37,504 bases of DNA, taken from IMG/VR virus record IMGVR_UViG_2660238580_000001, positions 1-37,504 of that record. The stretch is one strand, 5' to 3'. Of this stretch, positions 1,369 to 17,101 are shown in pieces (within the stretch, counting starts at the first letter, position 1; each line of letters begins with the position of its first letter). Under the pieces are notes generated by a model. It was not told the origin of the DNA, searched no databases, and saw only the letters and a program-made list of their open reading frames with translations. The DNA is from a virus. Its lineage: Duplodnaviria > Heunggongvirae > Uroviricota > Caudoviricetes. Position numbers and translations under genes: made by a program.

Positions 1369-1444
1369 GCCGATATAGCTCAGTTGGTAGAGCAGCGCAT
1401 TCGTAATGCGAAGGTCGTAGGTTCGACTCCTATTATCGGCACCA
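1369..1444 (+). tRNA. thrW: tRNA-Thr (anticodon CGU)
   Basis: 76-nt sequence GCCGATATAGCTCAGTTGGTAGAGCAGCGCATTCGTAATGCG...GGTTCGACTCCTATTATCGGCACCA with D-loop, anticodon loop containing CGT, T-loop GGTTCGA and 3' CCA; sits just downstream of proA. Confidence 0.93.
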
Positions 1445-4588: not shown

Positions 4589-5023
4589 ATGTCCGGTAAT
4601 ATCTACACGCTGTACAAATCCCACTGTGAAAATGTTGGAAAGTATCGGGGCATTGAAATCAGTGGGGTAGTGTCATCAGTCGAAATAAGCAAAGTCGAAT
4701 CAAGGGCAACATTACTTACTCTTCTGGACCTTGTCTTACATGAGCACCGGAAGAAATTCGGCACTCCCTATAATCAGTTGAATGGGAAAAAGGCTCTGGT
4801 TCACCTTATTCTGATGAAGCATCACTGGATGCCAAAACAGATTAATGAGATGAAATTTGATGAACTTCTTCTTTCAATTCAGGATGAACTCACACTTGAT
4901 AAAATAAGCGTAACCGCCCAGAAATTTTTAGATTATCGAGACTGGAGATCACAAATTCATCACTTTGATGATTTTGACGAAAATGAATGGGATCCTAATT
5001 TGTCTGCACAATATCTAAAGTAA
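4589..5023 (+). CDS. Hypothetical protein (144 aa), AT-rich moron-like gene opposite in orientation to the early-left operon
   Basis: ATG at 4589 preceded by AAGGAAAAG; long ORF in AT-rich DNA; a plus-strand intrinsic terminator lies downstream at 5261-5284. Confidence 0.6.
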   Translation: MSGNIYTLYKSHCENVGKYRGIEISGVVSSVEISKVESRATLLTLLDLVLHEHRKKFGTPYNQLNGKKALVHLILMKHHWMPKQINEMKFDELLLSIQDELTLDKISVTAQKFLDYRDWRSQIHHFDDFDENEWDPNLSAQYLK

Positions 5024-16218: not shown

Positions 16219-16704
16219 ATGGATTGGAATATGTGGTCTGCTATTGGGGCTTGTGGTTCGGCTATCGCGTCTTTATGGGCGTTGTGTTATGCACGCAAGG
16301 CGTTAAACACATGGAATAGACAAGAGCAATTTAAAGTAAAGTTAGAGTTTAAACGAGCTTTACTTGAGCTGGAGGATGCCTTTGAGGCAATGCCCGATAA
16401 TTGGAATTCCACACAATACAGAATAGCTAGAACAAGAGTTGAACAGCAGTATAATGCTGTTGTTCACCGAGTTGATGATGCAGCACAGCTATATTTCAAG
16501 AAAGAAAACCTTAAATCAGCATACCAGAATGCAGTGAGAGCATGGGTTTTATGTGAAGGGGGGATTAGAGATAAAAGTATACATGCTGAATGGAAACAAC
16601 TCAGGACTGATTATAGTCAATATATTATGACTGGTGGAAATAAAAAGTGCTACTTATCAAAAATAGAAAAAATATATTCTAGAATTGTCGTGTTCATAGA
16701 TTGA
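16219..16704 (+). CDS. Hypothetical membrane-anchored protein (moron between lysis and packaging genes)
   Basis: ATG at 16219 after GGAGG; N-terminal hydrophobic helix (WSAIGACGSAIASLWALCYA) then charged helical region; AT-rich. Confidence 0.6.
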   Translation: MDWNMWSAIGACGSAIASLWALCYARKALNTWNRQEQFKVKLEFKRALLELEDAFEAMPDNWNSTQYRIARTRVEQQYNAVVHRVDDAAQLYFKKENLKSAYQNAVRAWVLCEGGIRDKSIHAEWKQLRTDYSQYIMTGGNKKCYLSKIEKIYSRIVVFID

Positions 16705-16750
16705 TTTTTATATGAGAGAGACAAGTACTCTCTCATTATGGATATTTTAC

Positions 16751-17101
16751 ATGCCACCACGAACCCCAAAAGCCTGCCGCGTTCGCGGCTGCCGCAATAC
16801 CACTACTGATCCGTCAGGCTATTGCGAAAACCACAAAAGCGAGGGCTGGAAGCAATACAAGCCAAGACAATCCCGTCATCAGCGCGGTTATGGTTCTAAG
16901 TGGGATGTTATTCGCGTGCGTGTGCTGCAACGTGACAAAGGCCTGTGTCAGTTATGTCTGCGTGCTGGTGTGGTACGTGAGGCGAAAACCGTTGACCACA
17001 TCATTCCTAAAGCGCATGGCGGCACAGATGCCGACAGCAATCTGCAGAGTCTGTGCTGGCCGTGTCATAAGGCGAAGACGGCCCGTGAACGGCTTAAGTG
17101 A
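16751..17101 (+). CDS. HNH endonuclease (terminase-associated)
   Basis: ATG at 16751; HNH/zinc-finger motifs (CRVRGC ... C..H, DHIIPKAHGG ... CWPCHKAK); directly upstream of the small terminase, as in HK97-like cos phages. Confidence 0.85.
   Translation: MPPRTPKACRVRGCRNTTTDPSGYCENHKSEGWKQYKPRQSRHQRGYGSKWDVIRVRVLQRDKGLCQLCLRAGVVREAKTVDHIIPKAHGGTDADSNLQSLCWPCHKAKTARERLK

What the first reader, a model, noticed from the sequence alone, without database searches (positions are those of the whole stretch)
16219..16704. AT-rich membrane-anchored protein gene between the spanins and the packaging genes
This 162-aa ORF with a strong RBS occupies the second classic lambdoid cargo slot (where lambda carries bor). 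It has one N-terminal transmembrane helix and a charged, helical cytoplasmic region, and its composition differs from the flanking lysis and terminase genes. It is a candidate exclusion or abortive-infection factor.
Basis: partly seen in the sequence, partly recalled or inferred. Interest (0 to 1): 0.45.

Follow-up and report, generated by a model that had tools for sequence, protein, structure and literature searches.

The report
Self-contained prophage cargo gene, membrane protein
This is a real, rare prophage cargo gene for a small inner-membrane protein of unknown function, and its whole family carries its own promoter plus an RNA hairpin that probably keeps it from being translated when the phage's late genes are transcribed through it.

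Summary
An AT-rich ORF (16219-16704, 161 aa, GC 0.38 against about 0.5 in the flanks) lies between the spanin Rz1/LysC and the HNH-terminase genes of an SfV-like prophage. It encodes one N-terminal transmembrane helix and a cytoplasmic four-helix bundle (AlphaFold pLDDT 93).

It belongs to a small Enterobacterales phage family, phrog_6169, of unknown function. No Pfam, PADLOC, NCBIfam or PDB relative was found.

About 40 non-redundant homologues at 18-70 % identity sit in this same slot. Their neighbours span five holin, three endolysin and four terminase families. Sister prophages carry unrelated genes there, so it is cargo, not lysis or packaging machinery.

The new result is regulatory. Family-wide, a -10 hexamer (TAnAAT) is followed at once by a covarying hairpin whose 3' arm is the Shine-Dalgarno sequence, and usually by a terminator after the gene. 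Transcripts from the gene's own promoter would lack the anti-SD arm. Late read-through transcripts would carry it and be translationally silent, as in IS10 fold-back inhibition.

This points to expression in the lysogen. A role in exclusion or abortive infection is plausible but untested.

The parts
16185..16193 (+). Candidate sigma-70 promoter of the cassette. It is an extended -10, TGtTAATAT, with the hexamer TAATAT at 16188-16193. There is no good -35.
   Evidence: Read from the sequence. A -10-like hexamer (at least 5 of 6 matches, A at position 2, T at position 6) lies at the same place in 33 of 41 unique family upstream regions. The figures are 10 of 240 for control gene starts (Fisher 1e-26) and 2 of 36 for AT-rich controls. 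Its first base peaks at -33..-30 from the ATG. A and T of TAnAAT are nearly invariant in the MAFFT alignment. No transcription start site has been mapped.
16181..16223 (+). [quoted passage not shown] Inner stem: 16195-16200 (GCUUCU) pairs with 16207-16212 (GGAGGC), loop 16201-16206. Outer stems: 16187-16193 pairs with 16213-16219, and 16181-16184 pairs with 16220-16223.
   Evidence: strand folding gives dG -15.4 kcal/mol, z -3.80, with 0 of 200 shuffles as stable. P(SD unpaired) is 0.01 in a read-through transcript and 0.81 if transcription starts 7 nt after the hexamer. For family-wide covariation.
16207..16211 (+). Shine-Dalgarno GGAGG, 7 nt before the ATG. It forms the 3' arm of the hairpin.
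16219..16704 (+). CDS of 161 aa (stop TGA at 16702-16704), a phrog_6169 family member. An in-frame TTG at 16216 would add one residue.
16228..16293 (+). Codons for residues 4-25, the N-terminal transmembrane helix (NMWSAIGACGSAIASLWALCYA). It is rich in Gly, Ala, Ser and Cys.
   Evidence: Hydropathy and flanking charge across 29 family members. In the AF2 model it is part of the long helix 3-57.
16294..16398 (+). Codons for residues 26-60, the juxtamembrane helix. It is the most conserved part of the family (A..AL.TW..QE..K.K..FK ... MP; invariant A25, W32, P59).
   Evidence: mean conservation 2.65 bits here against 1.25 bits for residues 61-95.
16707..16742 (+). Hairpin just after the stop codon (core stem 16713-16721 with 16729-16737), followed by a weak U-rich stretch. 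It may be a weak terminator of the cassette.
   Evidence: dG -13.5 kcal/mol, z -4.24. It is not a canonical intrinsic terminator. Homologues have canonical terminators within 110 nt in 28 of 49 unique cases, against 41 of 267 controls.
15899..16153 (+). Left boundary of the slot: the Rz1/LysC o-spanin gene (lipobox LLTGC).
16751..17101 (+). Right boundary of the slot: the HNH endonuclease gene of the packaging module. Similarity to sister prophages resumes at about its start codon.

Best explanation
The locus is a self-contained moron cassette: promoter, leader hairpin, gene and a weak terminator. It sits at the lysis/packaging boundary of an SfV-like prophage at thrW.

Its product is a single-pass inner-membrane protein. 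It has a short acidic N-tail outside, then one long helix that crosses the membrane and continues into a cytoplasmic four-helix bundle. The juxtamembrane part is conserved and the distal bundle is variable.

The gene lies co-directionally inside the late operon, yet it appears built to be expressed only from its own sigma-70 promoter. The -10 hexamer abuts the anti-Shine-Dalgarno arm of a hairpin. A transcript started about 7 nt downstream of the hexamer therefore lacks that arm and has a free ribosome-binding site. Q-antiterminated late transcripts that read through from the lysis genes contain the whole hairpin and are translationally masked. This is the logic of IS10/IS50 fold-back inhibition.

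The protein would then be made in the lysogen and withheld during the phage's own lytic growth. The most likely role is protection of the lysogen against other phages at the inner membrane, by superinfection exclusion or abortive infection.

Shown here:
- Gene reality, family, fold and topology signals.
- Slot conservation and slot polymorphism.
- Conservation of the -10 hexamer.
- Covariation, strand bias and SD occlusion of the hairpin.
- Enrichment of terminators after the gene.

Inferred:
- That the hexamer is an active promoter, and where transcription starts.
- That read-through transcripts are not translated.
- That the gene is expressed in the lysogen.
- The defence function.

My rough confidence by layer: about 0.85 that it is an autonomous cargo cassette and not lysis or packaging machinery; about 0.55 that the hairpin discriminates between promoters; about 0.4 that the function is phage defence or exclusion. 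The overall figure given is for the whole statement.
For: Family and protein:
- phrog_6169, E 1.5e-64.
- 45 representatives in 1.84e9 proteins.
- Conserved motifs.
- AF2 pLDDT 93.4.
- Positive-inside signal in all 29 members examined.

Cargo, not machinery:
- The same slot in sister prophages holds DUF6979, DUF2441 or the 184-aa subfamily.
- Only 36 of 5426 complete E. coli genomes carry a family member.

Slot conservation across unrelated modules:
- Upstream in 40 loci: Phage_lysozyme 14, GH19 10, GH108 3, LysC 12, DUF2570 8, Phage_lysis 7, and five holin families.
- Downstream in 37 loci: Terminase_2 12, Terminase_4 9, DUF1441 7, Nu1 1, and four TerL types.

Promoter:
- A TAnAAT hexamer in 33 of 41 family regions against 10 of 240 controls, p 1e-26.
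- Its position is fixed at -33..-30.

Hairpin:
- The SD is paired upstream in 32 of 40 family regions against 98 of 240 controls (p 4e-6). P(SD paired) is 0.82 against 0.48 (p 1e-11).
- Native 5'/3' halves fold better than chimeras, -6.32 against -4.32 kcal/mol, with 0 of 20000 permutations reaching the native value.
- The sense strand is more stable than the antisense, -6.19 against -4.51, p 5e-5, with 25 G.U pairs.
- A covariance model built from 10 seeds finds 15 sites in 314 kb, all directly upstream of family genes.

Switch:
- P(SD unpaired) is 0.16 (median 0.04) in read-through transcripts and 0.52 with a start 7 nt after the hexamer, p 6e-8.
- In the window the values are 0.01 and 0.81.

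Terminators: 28 of 49 against 41 of 267, p 3e-9.

Defence context:
- Tai systems lie 'predominantly upstream of the packaging module' (PMC11364771).
- A PD-T4-6/Stk2-like kinase lies next to a homologue.
- Two diverged cassettes are stacked in one prophage.
- The gene is mosaic: residues 1-62 have pN 0.02 and residues 63-161 have pN 0.26.
Against: - No transcription start site, expression or phenotype data exist for any member. No paper names the family.
- The -35 region is poor in the window and in most homologues.
- About a third of homologues have a second -10-like element (TGTGATAAT) 15 nt further upstream. If that is the real promoter, it would put the whole hairpin inside the gene's own mRNA.
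- With the assumed start site the SD is only about 50 % open on average, and it stays closed in some members.
- The window's own terminator is not canonical.
- No similarity to any known defence or exclusion protein. The fold is uninformative.
- The strict position next to the lysis cassette could instead reflect a functional link with lysis.
- Protein made in the lysogen would still be in the membrane after induction, so 'incompatible with lytic growth' cannot be absolute.
Confidence: 0.4

Rival explanations
1. Lysis-cassette accessory. The protein is made late from the Q-dependent transcript. It acts at the inner membrane with holin, endolysin or spanin, for example as an antiholin-like timer or a late-acting exclusion factor. 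That would explain why it always follows the spanin genes.
For: - It lies immediately downstream of holin-endolysin-spanin and on the same strand in nearly all of about 40 non-redundant loci.
- When other cargo is present it stays next to the spanin, not next to the terminase (L016).
- The transmembrane segment is rich in Gly, Ala, Ser and Cys and weakly hydrophobic in the window copy. This recalls signal-anchor-release (SAR) domains.
Against: - It accompanies five unrelated holin families and three endolysin families, so a specific partner is unlikely.
- It is absent from most sister prophages with the same lysis genes, which carry unrelated genes in its place.
- It has its own -10 element, an SD-masking hairpin and usually its own terminator. 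That is the opposite of what a late-translated gene needs.
- No match to lysis families in Pfam or PHROGs.
- Most family members have clearly hydrophobic transmembrane segments (mean KD 1.83).
Confidence: 0.12
2. It is still a moron, but the hairpin lies inside the gene's own mRNA because transcription starts upstream of it. The hairpin then works as a constitutive translation throttle or a thermosensor, as in IS200 tnpA or type I toxin mRNAs. It would not discriminate between promoters.
For: - A second, extended -10-like element TGTGATAAT lies 15 nt upstream of the TAnAAT hexamer in about a third of loci.
- Sequestration of the SD within a gene's own 5' UTR is documented for IS200 (PMC4513863).
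- Stems of -6 to -12 kcal/mol with A-rich loops are in the range of RNA thermometers.
- In some members the SD stays paired even in the short transcript.
Against: - The universal feature is a -10 hexamer 0-3 nt from the 5' arm. This includes loci, such as the window, that have no upstream element.
- In L071 and L028 the TGTGATAAT element is itself the hexamer that abuts the hairpin.
- A sigma-70 start about 7 nt downstream cannot include the anti-SD arm.
Confidence: 0.2
3. It is a lysogen-expressed conversion factor unrelated to phage defence. A membrane-anchored cytoplasmic adaptor would alter host physiology, for example envelope stress signalling, protease or transporter activity, or virulence or fitness in the gut.
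For: - The most conserved part is the juxtamembrane helix (W32, Q35, E36, K39, F44, K45). It is conserved across phages of different types, which suggests a conserved host partner rather than a variable phage target.
- Known occupants of this slot include non-defence morons: lambda bor (serum resistance; from general knowledge) and P22 pid (dgo operon derepression; PMC3573128).
- Hosts include APEC, urinary and Salmonella isolates.
Against: - Stacked, diverged paralogues occur in one prophage, and the distal bundle is mosaic and fast-evolving. Both fit an arms race better.
- If the protein were merely beneficial to the host, there would be little reason to mask its translation during late transcription.
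- There is no similarity to any characterised conversion factor.
Confidence: 0.2
4. It is a decaying or non-functional ORF in an AT-rich spacer.
For: It is rare (36 of 5426 E. coli genomes) and has no known domain.
Against: - dN/dS is 0.32.
- Full-length homologues at 18-70 % identity share conserved motifs.
- A confident fold is predicted from 29 sequences.
- The flanking regulatory elements are conserved.
Confidence: 0.02

Closest known systems
Morons of the lysis/packaging junction: lambda bor and P22 pid
   Same: They occupy the same slot, after Rz/Rz1 and before the terminase genes. P22 pid lies at 40357-40998, between Rz1 and gene 3. They show presence/absence polymorphism among related phages and are independent transcription units.
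   Different: bor and pid are transcribed divergently from the late operon (pid: PMC3573128; bor: general knowledge), which by itself avoids late expression. This family is co-directional and seems to solve the same problem with an SD-masking hairpin. The proteins are unrelated: Bor is an outer-membrane lipoprotein and Pid is an 86-aa soluble protein.
HK97 gp15 (moron-encoded superinfection exclusion protein; from general knowledge and 'The moron comes of age', PMC3594210)
   Same: It is a small single-pass inner-membrane protein. It is encoded by a co-directional moron inside the late operon of a lambdoid phage and is expressed from the prophage.
   Different: It sits in a different slot, among the tail genes. 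As far as I recall its C-terminal part is periplasmic. No sequence comparison was run here. Whether its RBS is masked in late transcripts is not known to me.
IS10 / IS50 fold-back inhibition (Davis, Simons & Kleckner 1985; Schulz & Reznikoff 1991; cited from memory, not retrieved by the paper searches)
   Same: Transcripts that enter from outside include a sequence upstream of the element's own start site. That sequence pairs with the ribosome-binding site, so only transcripts from the element's own promoter are translated.
   Different: The context is a phage cargo gene in a late operon rather than a transposase. Here the anti-SD coincides with the promoter's discriminator region. The mechanism is inferred from sequence only.
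IS200 tnpA 5' UTR stem-loop (PMC4513863)
   Same: A stable stem-loop directly sequesters a near-consensus SD and limits 30S binding.
   Different: In IS200 the hairpin is part of the gene's own mRNA, so it acts as a constitutive throttle. Protection from outside transcription is by a terminator.
P22 SieA / SieB
   Same: They are small prophage-expressed inner-membrane proteins with their own promoters.
   Different: No detectable relationship: hhalign probability is 0.6 % and 0.1 %. They lie at different genome positions.
Pfam DUF4760 (the label UniRef gives to near-identical Salmonella proteins)
   Same: UniRef names two cluster members 'DUF4760 domain-containing protein'.
   Different: The Pfam-A copy used here gives no DUF4760 hit for the window protein, four close homologues or any of 29 family members, even at E up to 10.
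[quoted passage not shown]
   Same: They occupy the same hotspot in lambdoid phages (PMC11364771). A PD-T4-6/Stk2-like kinase occupies it next to a family member.
   Different: There is no PADLOC hit. Tai proteins were not compared directly.

Membership tests
phrog_6169 (PHROGs v4, unknown function) | Full-length match to the family HMM | tested here: met
   E 1.5e-64, 218 bits, residues 1-160 against profile positions 5-164 of 165.
Pfam DUF4760 | Match to the Pfam model at or above its gathering score | tested here: not met
   No DUF4760 hit at E up to 10 for the window protein, P0001, P0002, P0003 or P0007, nor at E up to 1 for any of the 29 members of A2. The name appears only in UniRef titles.
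Moron (Hendrix/Juhala sense) | Present in some and absent from other closely related phages at the same site | tested here: met
   565 E. coli genomes match the first 50-70 bp or so of the adjoining HNH gene. Only 9 have this gene. 27 have the 184-aa subfamily. Others hold DUF6979 or DUF2441 genes in the slot.
Moron (Hendrix/Juhala sense) | Base composition unlike the surrounding phage genes | tested here: met
   GC 0.381 and GC3 0.321 against 0.48-0.58 and 0.43-0.66 in the neighbours. The same holds in 10 homologous loci.
Moron (Hendrix/Juhala sense) | Own promoter | tested here: inconclusive
   A conserved -10 hexamer lies at a fixed distance in 33 of 41 family regions against 10 of 240 controls. 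In the window it is TGtTAATAT at 16185-16193. The -35 is poor and no transcription start site data exist.
Moron (Hendrix/Juhala sense) | Factor-independent terminator after the gene | tested here: inconclusive
   In the family, 28 of 49 have one against 41 of 267 controls. The window copy has only a strong hairpin with a weak U tract.
Known anti-phage defence systems (PADLOC-DB 2.0) | HMM match to any of the 5027 models | tested here: not met
   0 families at E up to 10.
P22-type superinfection exclusion (SieA, SieB) | Sequence or profile similarity | tested here: not met
   hhalign of A2 against SieA gives probability 0.6 %, and against SieB 0.1 %.
Superinfection exclusion / abortive infection (functional class) | Reduced plating or injection of other phages, or infection-triggered cell death, when the gene is expressed | not testable with these tools
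   This needs phage challenge and viability assays.
Phage lysis proteins (holin, antiholin, spanin, releasin) | Family match, or requirement for lysis by the carrier phage | tested here: not met
   No lysis family in Pfam, PHROGs or NCBIfam. Sister prophages with the same holin, lysozyme and spanin genes lack it. The requirement for lysis was not tested experimentally.
Fold-back inhibition (IS10/IS50 type) | Sequence upstream of the RBS pairs with the SD | tested here: met
   Window: dG -15.4 kcal/mol, z -3.8. Family: SD pairing, swap test and strand asymmetry.
Fold-back inhibition (IS10/IS50 type) | The gene's own transcript starts downstream of the anti-SD, so only outside transcripts are masked | tested here: inconclusive
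   The geometry supports it. The -10 hexamer abuts the 5' arm, and with a start 7 nt after it P(SD unpaired) rises from 0.16 to 0.52 in the family and from 0.01 to 0.81 in the window. The start site is assumed, not measured.
Single-pass N-out/C-in inner-membrane protein | One hydrophobic helix, acidic N-tail, basic C-flank | tested here: met
   All 29 members fit. Mean KD19 is 1.83, N-tail charge -2.0 and next-25-residue charge +3.8. The AF2 model has helix 3-57. Topology has not been verified experimentally.

The most novel reading that the evidence does not exclude
The phrog_6169 cassette may be a new kind of prophage defence or exclusion module. Its membrane effector would be incompatible with its own phage's lytic cycle. 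It would therefore be wired with a promoter-embedded anti-Shine-Dalgarno switch, so that it is translated only from its own promoter in the lysogen and never from the late operon that runs through it. If so, this would be a general, previously undescribed way for co-directional morons to escape late expression.
Probability: 0.3. Interest if true: 0.7.

Novelty: new variant of a known kind. Interest (0 to 1): 0.5.

Why it matters
Morons are the main route by which temperate phages carry defence and fitness genes. How a cargo gene embedded co-directionally in the most strongly transcribed phage operon is kept off during lytic growth has hardly been addressed.

This family offers a compact test case of about 45 nt with built-in covariation. 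One -10 hexamer and one hairpin would let the same DNA yield a translatable mRNA from the prophage and a silent one from the late transcript.

If confirmed, the finding would do three things:
- Give a sequence signature for finding lysogen-only cargo genes.
- Argue that this membrane protein is harmful to its own phage, as exclusion or abortive-infection factors can be.
- Add an uncharacterised inner-membrane family to the candidates for phage exclusion in E. coli, Salmonella, Shigella, Citrobacter, Yersinia and Enterobacter.

If the hairpin is only a throttle and the protein has no phenotype, the locus is an ordinary hypothetical moron.

Tried and rejected
- Domain searches found nothing beyond phrog_6169: Pfam, NCBIfam and PADLOC on the window protein and on 29 homologues.
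- A PDB sequence search with the family profile found nothing significant; the best E-value was 0.045.
- BFVD gave no hit at E up to 1e-3. The best was a 185-aa protein of mycobacteriophage Redi (E 0.06). By its length this is probably gp32, in the variable region next to the integrase and repressor genes. It has no Pfam domain and no profile similarity to the family, so I kept it only as a weak lead.
- The afdb50 library was not available.
- RNAalifold on the MAFFT alignment of leaders predicted no structure, because the arms are out of register between subfamilies. I replaced it with per-sequence folding, controls, a swap test and a strand test.
- A covariance model built from 10 seeds was specific but too narrow to align divergent members such as the window.
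- Rfam has no family for the leader or for the upstream conserved block.
- The same -10/hairpin design is absent from other occupants of the slot (DUF2441, DUF6979, P22 rha and orf80). It is only loosely present before the L029 kinase gene, so it belongs to this cassette and not to the slot.
- The inverted repeat is unlikely to be a DNA operator. The 3' arm is always the SD, the sequences covary, and G.U pairs make the sense strand more stable.
- The search for related loci with the full alignment failed for lack of conserved columns. A sub-alignment worked.
- Literature searches for DUF4760, protein accessions and phrog_6169 found nothing relevant.
- No homologue was found on plasmids.
Full report
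**1. The observation**

The ORF exists. The ORF listing reports 16216..16704 on the + strand, 162 aa from TTG. The ATG at 16219 gives 161 aa. It is preceded by GGAGG at 16207-16211, and RefSeq uses it as the start in an identical sequence of E. coli APEC20/16.

The gene has GC 0.381 and GC3 0.321. Holin, lysozyme and Rz have GC 0.52, 0.49 and 0.48. HNH, TerS and TerL have 0.55, 0.58 and 0.54.

The window is a prophage integrated at tRNA-Thr next to proA. It has lambdoid early genes, a Q antiterminator, a lambda-family holin, a GH24 lysozyme, Rz and Rz1/LysC, then this gene. After it come HNH, a P27-type small terminase, the large terminase, an HK97-type head and a Mu-like contractile tail. This is the SfV/SfI type.

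**2. It is a real gene of a small, uncharacterised family**

- It matches phrog_6169 ('unknown function') end to end, E 1.5e-64.
- Pfam, NCBIfam and PADLOC give nothing.
- The indexed search of 5.8 billion proteins found four clusters, from Salmonella enterica, E. coli, Shigella and Citrobacter freundii.
- An exhaustive HMMER search of 1.84 billion cluster representatives found 45 at E up to 1e-3 and 27 at E up to 1e-10.
- UniRef titles two near-identical Salmonella proteins 'DUF4760 domain-containing'. The Pfam copy used here gives no such hit for these or for any of 29 family members. I do not file the gene under DUF4760.
- Against a 79 %-identical allele, dN/dS is 0.32. The divergence is mosaic: residues 1-62 have pS 0.20 and pN 0.02, and residues 63-161 have pS 0.53 and pN 0.26.

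**3. The protein**

An alignment of 29 full-length members at 18-67 % identity shows these features in order:
- A hydrophobic helix.
- A strongly conserved juxtamembrane stretch, A..AL.TW..QE..K.K..FK.
- An invariant MP.
- W..CE.LF, a conserved Y, and a hydrophobic C-end (..FVF).

Most members carry about 18 extra acidic N-terminal residues that the window subfamily lacks.

The topology signals agree across all 29 members. Mean hydropathy of the helix is 1.83; the window copy, at 1.45, is the weakest. The N-tail has net charge -2.0. The following 25 residues have +3.8. By the positive-inside rule this gives N-out/C-in.

AlphaFold2 on four sequences was poor (pLDDT 74.7, with one model of five usable). 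On 29 sequences it was confident (pLDDT 93.4, pTM 0.81). It shows one helix from residue 3 to 57 that would cross the membrane and continue into a bundle with helices 64-81, 89-112, 119-138 and 143-155.

**4. Where the family lives**

Every context I could read puts the gene on the same strand, after holin-endolysin-spanin and before the terminase. The flanking modules are unrelated from case to case.

After adding 4 species genomes and 65 IMG/VR contigs, I scanned the neighbours of about 40 non-redundant loci against Pfam.

| Side | Families found (number of proteins) |
|---|---|
| Upstream, endolysins | Phage_lysozyme 14, GH19 10, GH108 3 |
| Upstream, spanins | LysC 12, DUF2570 8, Phage_lysis 7 |
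| Upstream, holins | five families |
| Downstream, small terminases | Terminase_2 12, Terminase_4 9, DUF1441 7, Nu1 1 |
| Downstream, large terminases | four types |

Where further cargo is present, the gene stays next to the spanin (L016).

In the closest relatives of the window prophage the same slot holds unrelated genes:
- A DUF6979 protein in SfI.
- A DUF2441 protein in DA33137.
- The 184-aa subfamily of this same family, 28 % identical, in LD27-1 and in Salmonella phage 118970_sal3.

In 5426 complete E. coli genomes the counts are 248 for the DUF6979 gene, 50 for the DUF2441 gene and 36 for this family (9 plus 27). One strain carries both subfamilies in two prophages. None is on a plasmid.

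The gene is therefore dispensable, exchangeable cargo in a polymorphic slot. This is the slot of lambda bor and P22 pid. It is also one in which defence genes are known to sit (Tai systems, PMC11364771). In locus L029 a PD-T4-6/Stk2-like kinase lies directly upstream of a family member (PADLOC E 5.6e-36).

**5. The cis-regulatory design, the main new result**

I lined up the 41 unique upstream regions on the start codon. They share a fixed arrangement:
- A -10-type hexamer TAnAAT (TACAAT, TATAAT, TAAAAT, TAGAAT, TAATAT) with its first base at -33..-30.
- Then, 0-3 nt later, a 5-9-nt arm complementary to the Shine-Dalgarno sequence.
- An A-rich loop of 5-9 nt.
- The SD itself as the 3' arm.
- The ATG.

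The arms differ between subfamilies and stay complementary: CTCACT/AGTGAG, CACCT/GGGGTG, ATCTCAT/ATGAGGT, GCCC/GGGC, TCCCTT/AAGGGA, CGCTCC/GGAGACG.

The quantitative tests were as follows.

| Test | Family | Comparison | Statistic |
|---|---|---|---|
| -10-like hexamer at -40..-22 | 33 of 41 | 10 of 240 other gene starts in the same loci | Fisher 1e-26 |
| Same, AT-rich controls only | 33 of 41 | 2 of 36 | Fisher 1e-11 |
| SD paired to upstream bases in the MFE fold | 32 of 40 | 98 of 240 | p 4e-6 |
| Mean probability that the SD is paired | 0.82 | 0.48 | p 1e-11 |
| Native 5' and 3' halves against all chimeras | -6.32 kcal/mol | -4.32 kcal/mol | 0 of 20000 permutations |
| Sense strand against antisense strand | -6.19 kcal/mol | -4.51 kcal/mol | p 5e-5 |

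The sense-strand stems contain 25 G.U pairs among 207 pairs. That argues for an RNA structure rather than a DNA operator.

A covariance model built from ten seeds hits 15 sites in 314 kb on both strands, all directly upstream of family genes.

A canonical intrinsic terminator follows the gene within 110 nt in 28 of 49 unique cases, against 41 of 267 controls (p 3e-9).

In the window the elements are:
- TGtTAATAT at 16185-16193.
- Inner stem 16195-16200 with 16207-16212.
- Outer stems that extend over the hexamer and over the start codon.
- Total dG -15.4 kcal/mol, z -3.8.
- A post-gene hairpin at 16707-16742, dG -13.5 kcal/mol, with only a weak U tract.

**6. How it most likely works**

Sigma-70 transcription starts about 7 nt after the -10 hexamer. 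A transcript from this promoter must therefore begin inside or after the anti-SD arm.

I folded a 'read-through' RNA (from -90) and 'own-promoter' RNAs for each member. The probability that the SD is unpaired rises from 0.16 (median 0.04) to 0.52 (Wilcoxon p 6e-8). In the window it rises from 0.01 to 0.81.

The gene lies inside the Q-dependent late operon. The design would therefore give a translatable short-leader mRNA in the lysogen and a masked message in the abundant late transcript. This is the logic of IS10/IS50 fold-back inhibition, which I cite from memory because the library searches did not retrieve those papers.

bor and pid avoid late expression by pointing the other way. This family would achieve the same result while co-directional.

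Several steps here are inference: that the promoter is active, where transcription starts, and that there is an effect on translation.

The main caveats are:
- The -35 region is poor.
- About a third of loci have a second -10-like element, TGTGATAAT, 15 nt upstream. If that is the true promoter, the hairpin would lie inside the gene's own mRNA, like the IS200 tnpA throttle (PMC4513863).
- In some members the SD remains paired in the short RNA.

**7. Function**

Nothing identifies it directly. I commit to this reading: a prophage-expressed inner-membrane factor that protects the lysogen from other phages, by exclusion or abortive infection. My confidence is moderate to low. The reasons are:
- The cassette looks built for expression in the lysogen and for silence during the phage's own lytic growth. 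That makes sense for a protein that would harm that growth.
- The slot hosts defence genes.
- Some prophages stack two diverged cassettes.
- The distal bundle is the variable, mosaic part, while the membrane-proximal part is conserved.

Against this reading:
- There is no similarity to any known defence or exclusion protein.
- The conserved juxtamembrane motif suggests a host partner.
- The constant adjacency to the lysis genes leaves room for a link with lysis.

The lysis-accessory rival is weakened in three ways. The holins and endolysins the gene accompanies are diverse. It is replaceable in sister phages. A late-translated gene would need neither its own promoter, nor a masked SD, nor its own terminator.

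**8. Novelty and verdict**

The kind of element is known: a moron in the lysis/packaging slot that encodes a small membrane protein. The family is catalogued only as an unknown PHROG.

I found no description of the family-wide arrangement of a -10 hexamer abutting an anti-SD arm. I rate the finding a new variant of a known kind, of moderate interest. It is directly testable by 5' end mapping, leader-swap reporters and phage challenge.

Noticed in passing
window 12345-14547 (minus strand): A second AT-rich cargo block (GC 0.33-0.39) lies between the Q antiterminator and the holin. It holds a 343-aa NA37/NdpA-type nucleoid-associated protein (Pfam PF04245, E 1.5e-68), which overlaps a 394-aa protein with C-terminal hydrophobic segments and no Pfam or PADLOC hit. 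It may be a two-gene accessory or defence unit.
   Followed up: partly
window 15628-16062: RefSeq flags the Rz (DUF2570) gene as a frameshifted pseudogene in the identical APEC20/16 sequence. The 144-aa ORF is nevertheless 90 % identical over its full length to an intact homologue in strain BCE049. The pseudogene label looks unwarranted.
   Followed up: partly
L022 1285-1806 and 3447-4001 (Enterobacter sp. kpr-6; same in L062); L020 4001-4519 and 4632-5198: Two diverged family cassettes are stacked in the same slot of one prophage. In L022 each has its own -10 hexamer, hairpin and terminator. In L020 a weak second copy follows in tandem.
   Followed up: partly
L029 1480-3008: A PD-T4-6/Stk2-like Ser/Thr kinase (PADLOC E 5.6e-36) and a neighbouring ORF lie directly upstream of a family member and before the small terminase. 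By elimination among the Pfam hits, the neighbouring ORF is probably the PP2C-type phosphatase.
   Followed up: partly
L007 about 4930-4975; also L022, L037, L070, L071, L079, L080, L032 (absent from the window): A conserved block of about 45 bp, GCATTACAGCAGGCATTCACTGAGTGCCTGTGATAAT, lies upstream of the -10 hexamer in about a third of family loci. It contains an extended -10-like TGTGATAAT. It has no Rfam match and its meaning is unknown.
   Followed up: partly
window 14790-14837: The holin leader contains a CACCUC...GAGGUG hairpin over its own Shine-Dalgarno region (dG -8.6 kcal/mol). This recalls the sdi structure that sets the ratio of the two translational starts of lambda S.
   Followed up: no
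E. coli FT130 (NZ_CP040090) at 2.72 Mb and 3.66 Mb: One strain carries both the 161-aa and the 184-aa subfamily, in two different prophages.
   Followed up: no
window 16751 (HNH start) and homologous loci: The HNH endonuclease gene that follows the slot has no recognisable Shine-Dalgarno sequence. Only an A/U-rich stretch precedes its ATG, both in the window and in L006.
   Followed up: no
window 1369-1441: A tRNA gene (Rfam, 71.8 bits) marks the prophage attachment site. It is annotated as tRNA-Thr next to proA and the integrase in the identical genome.
   Followed up: no
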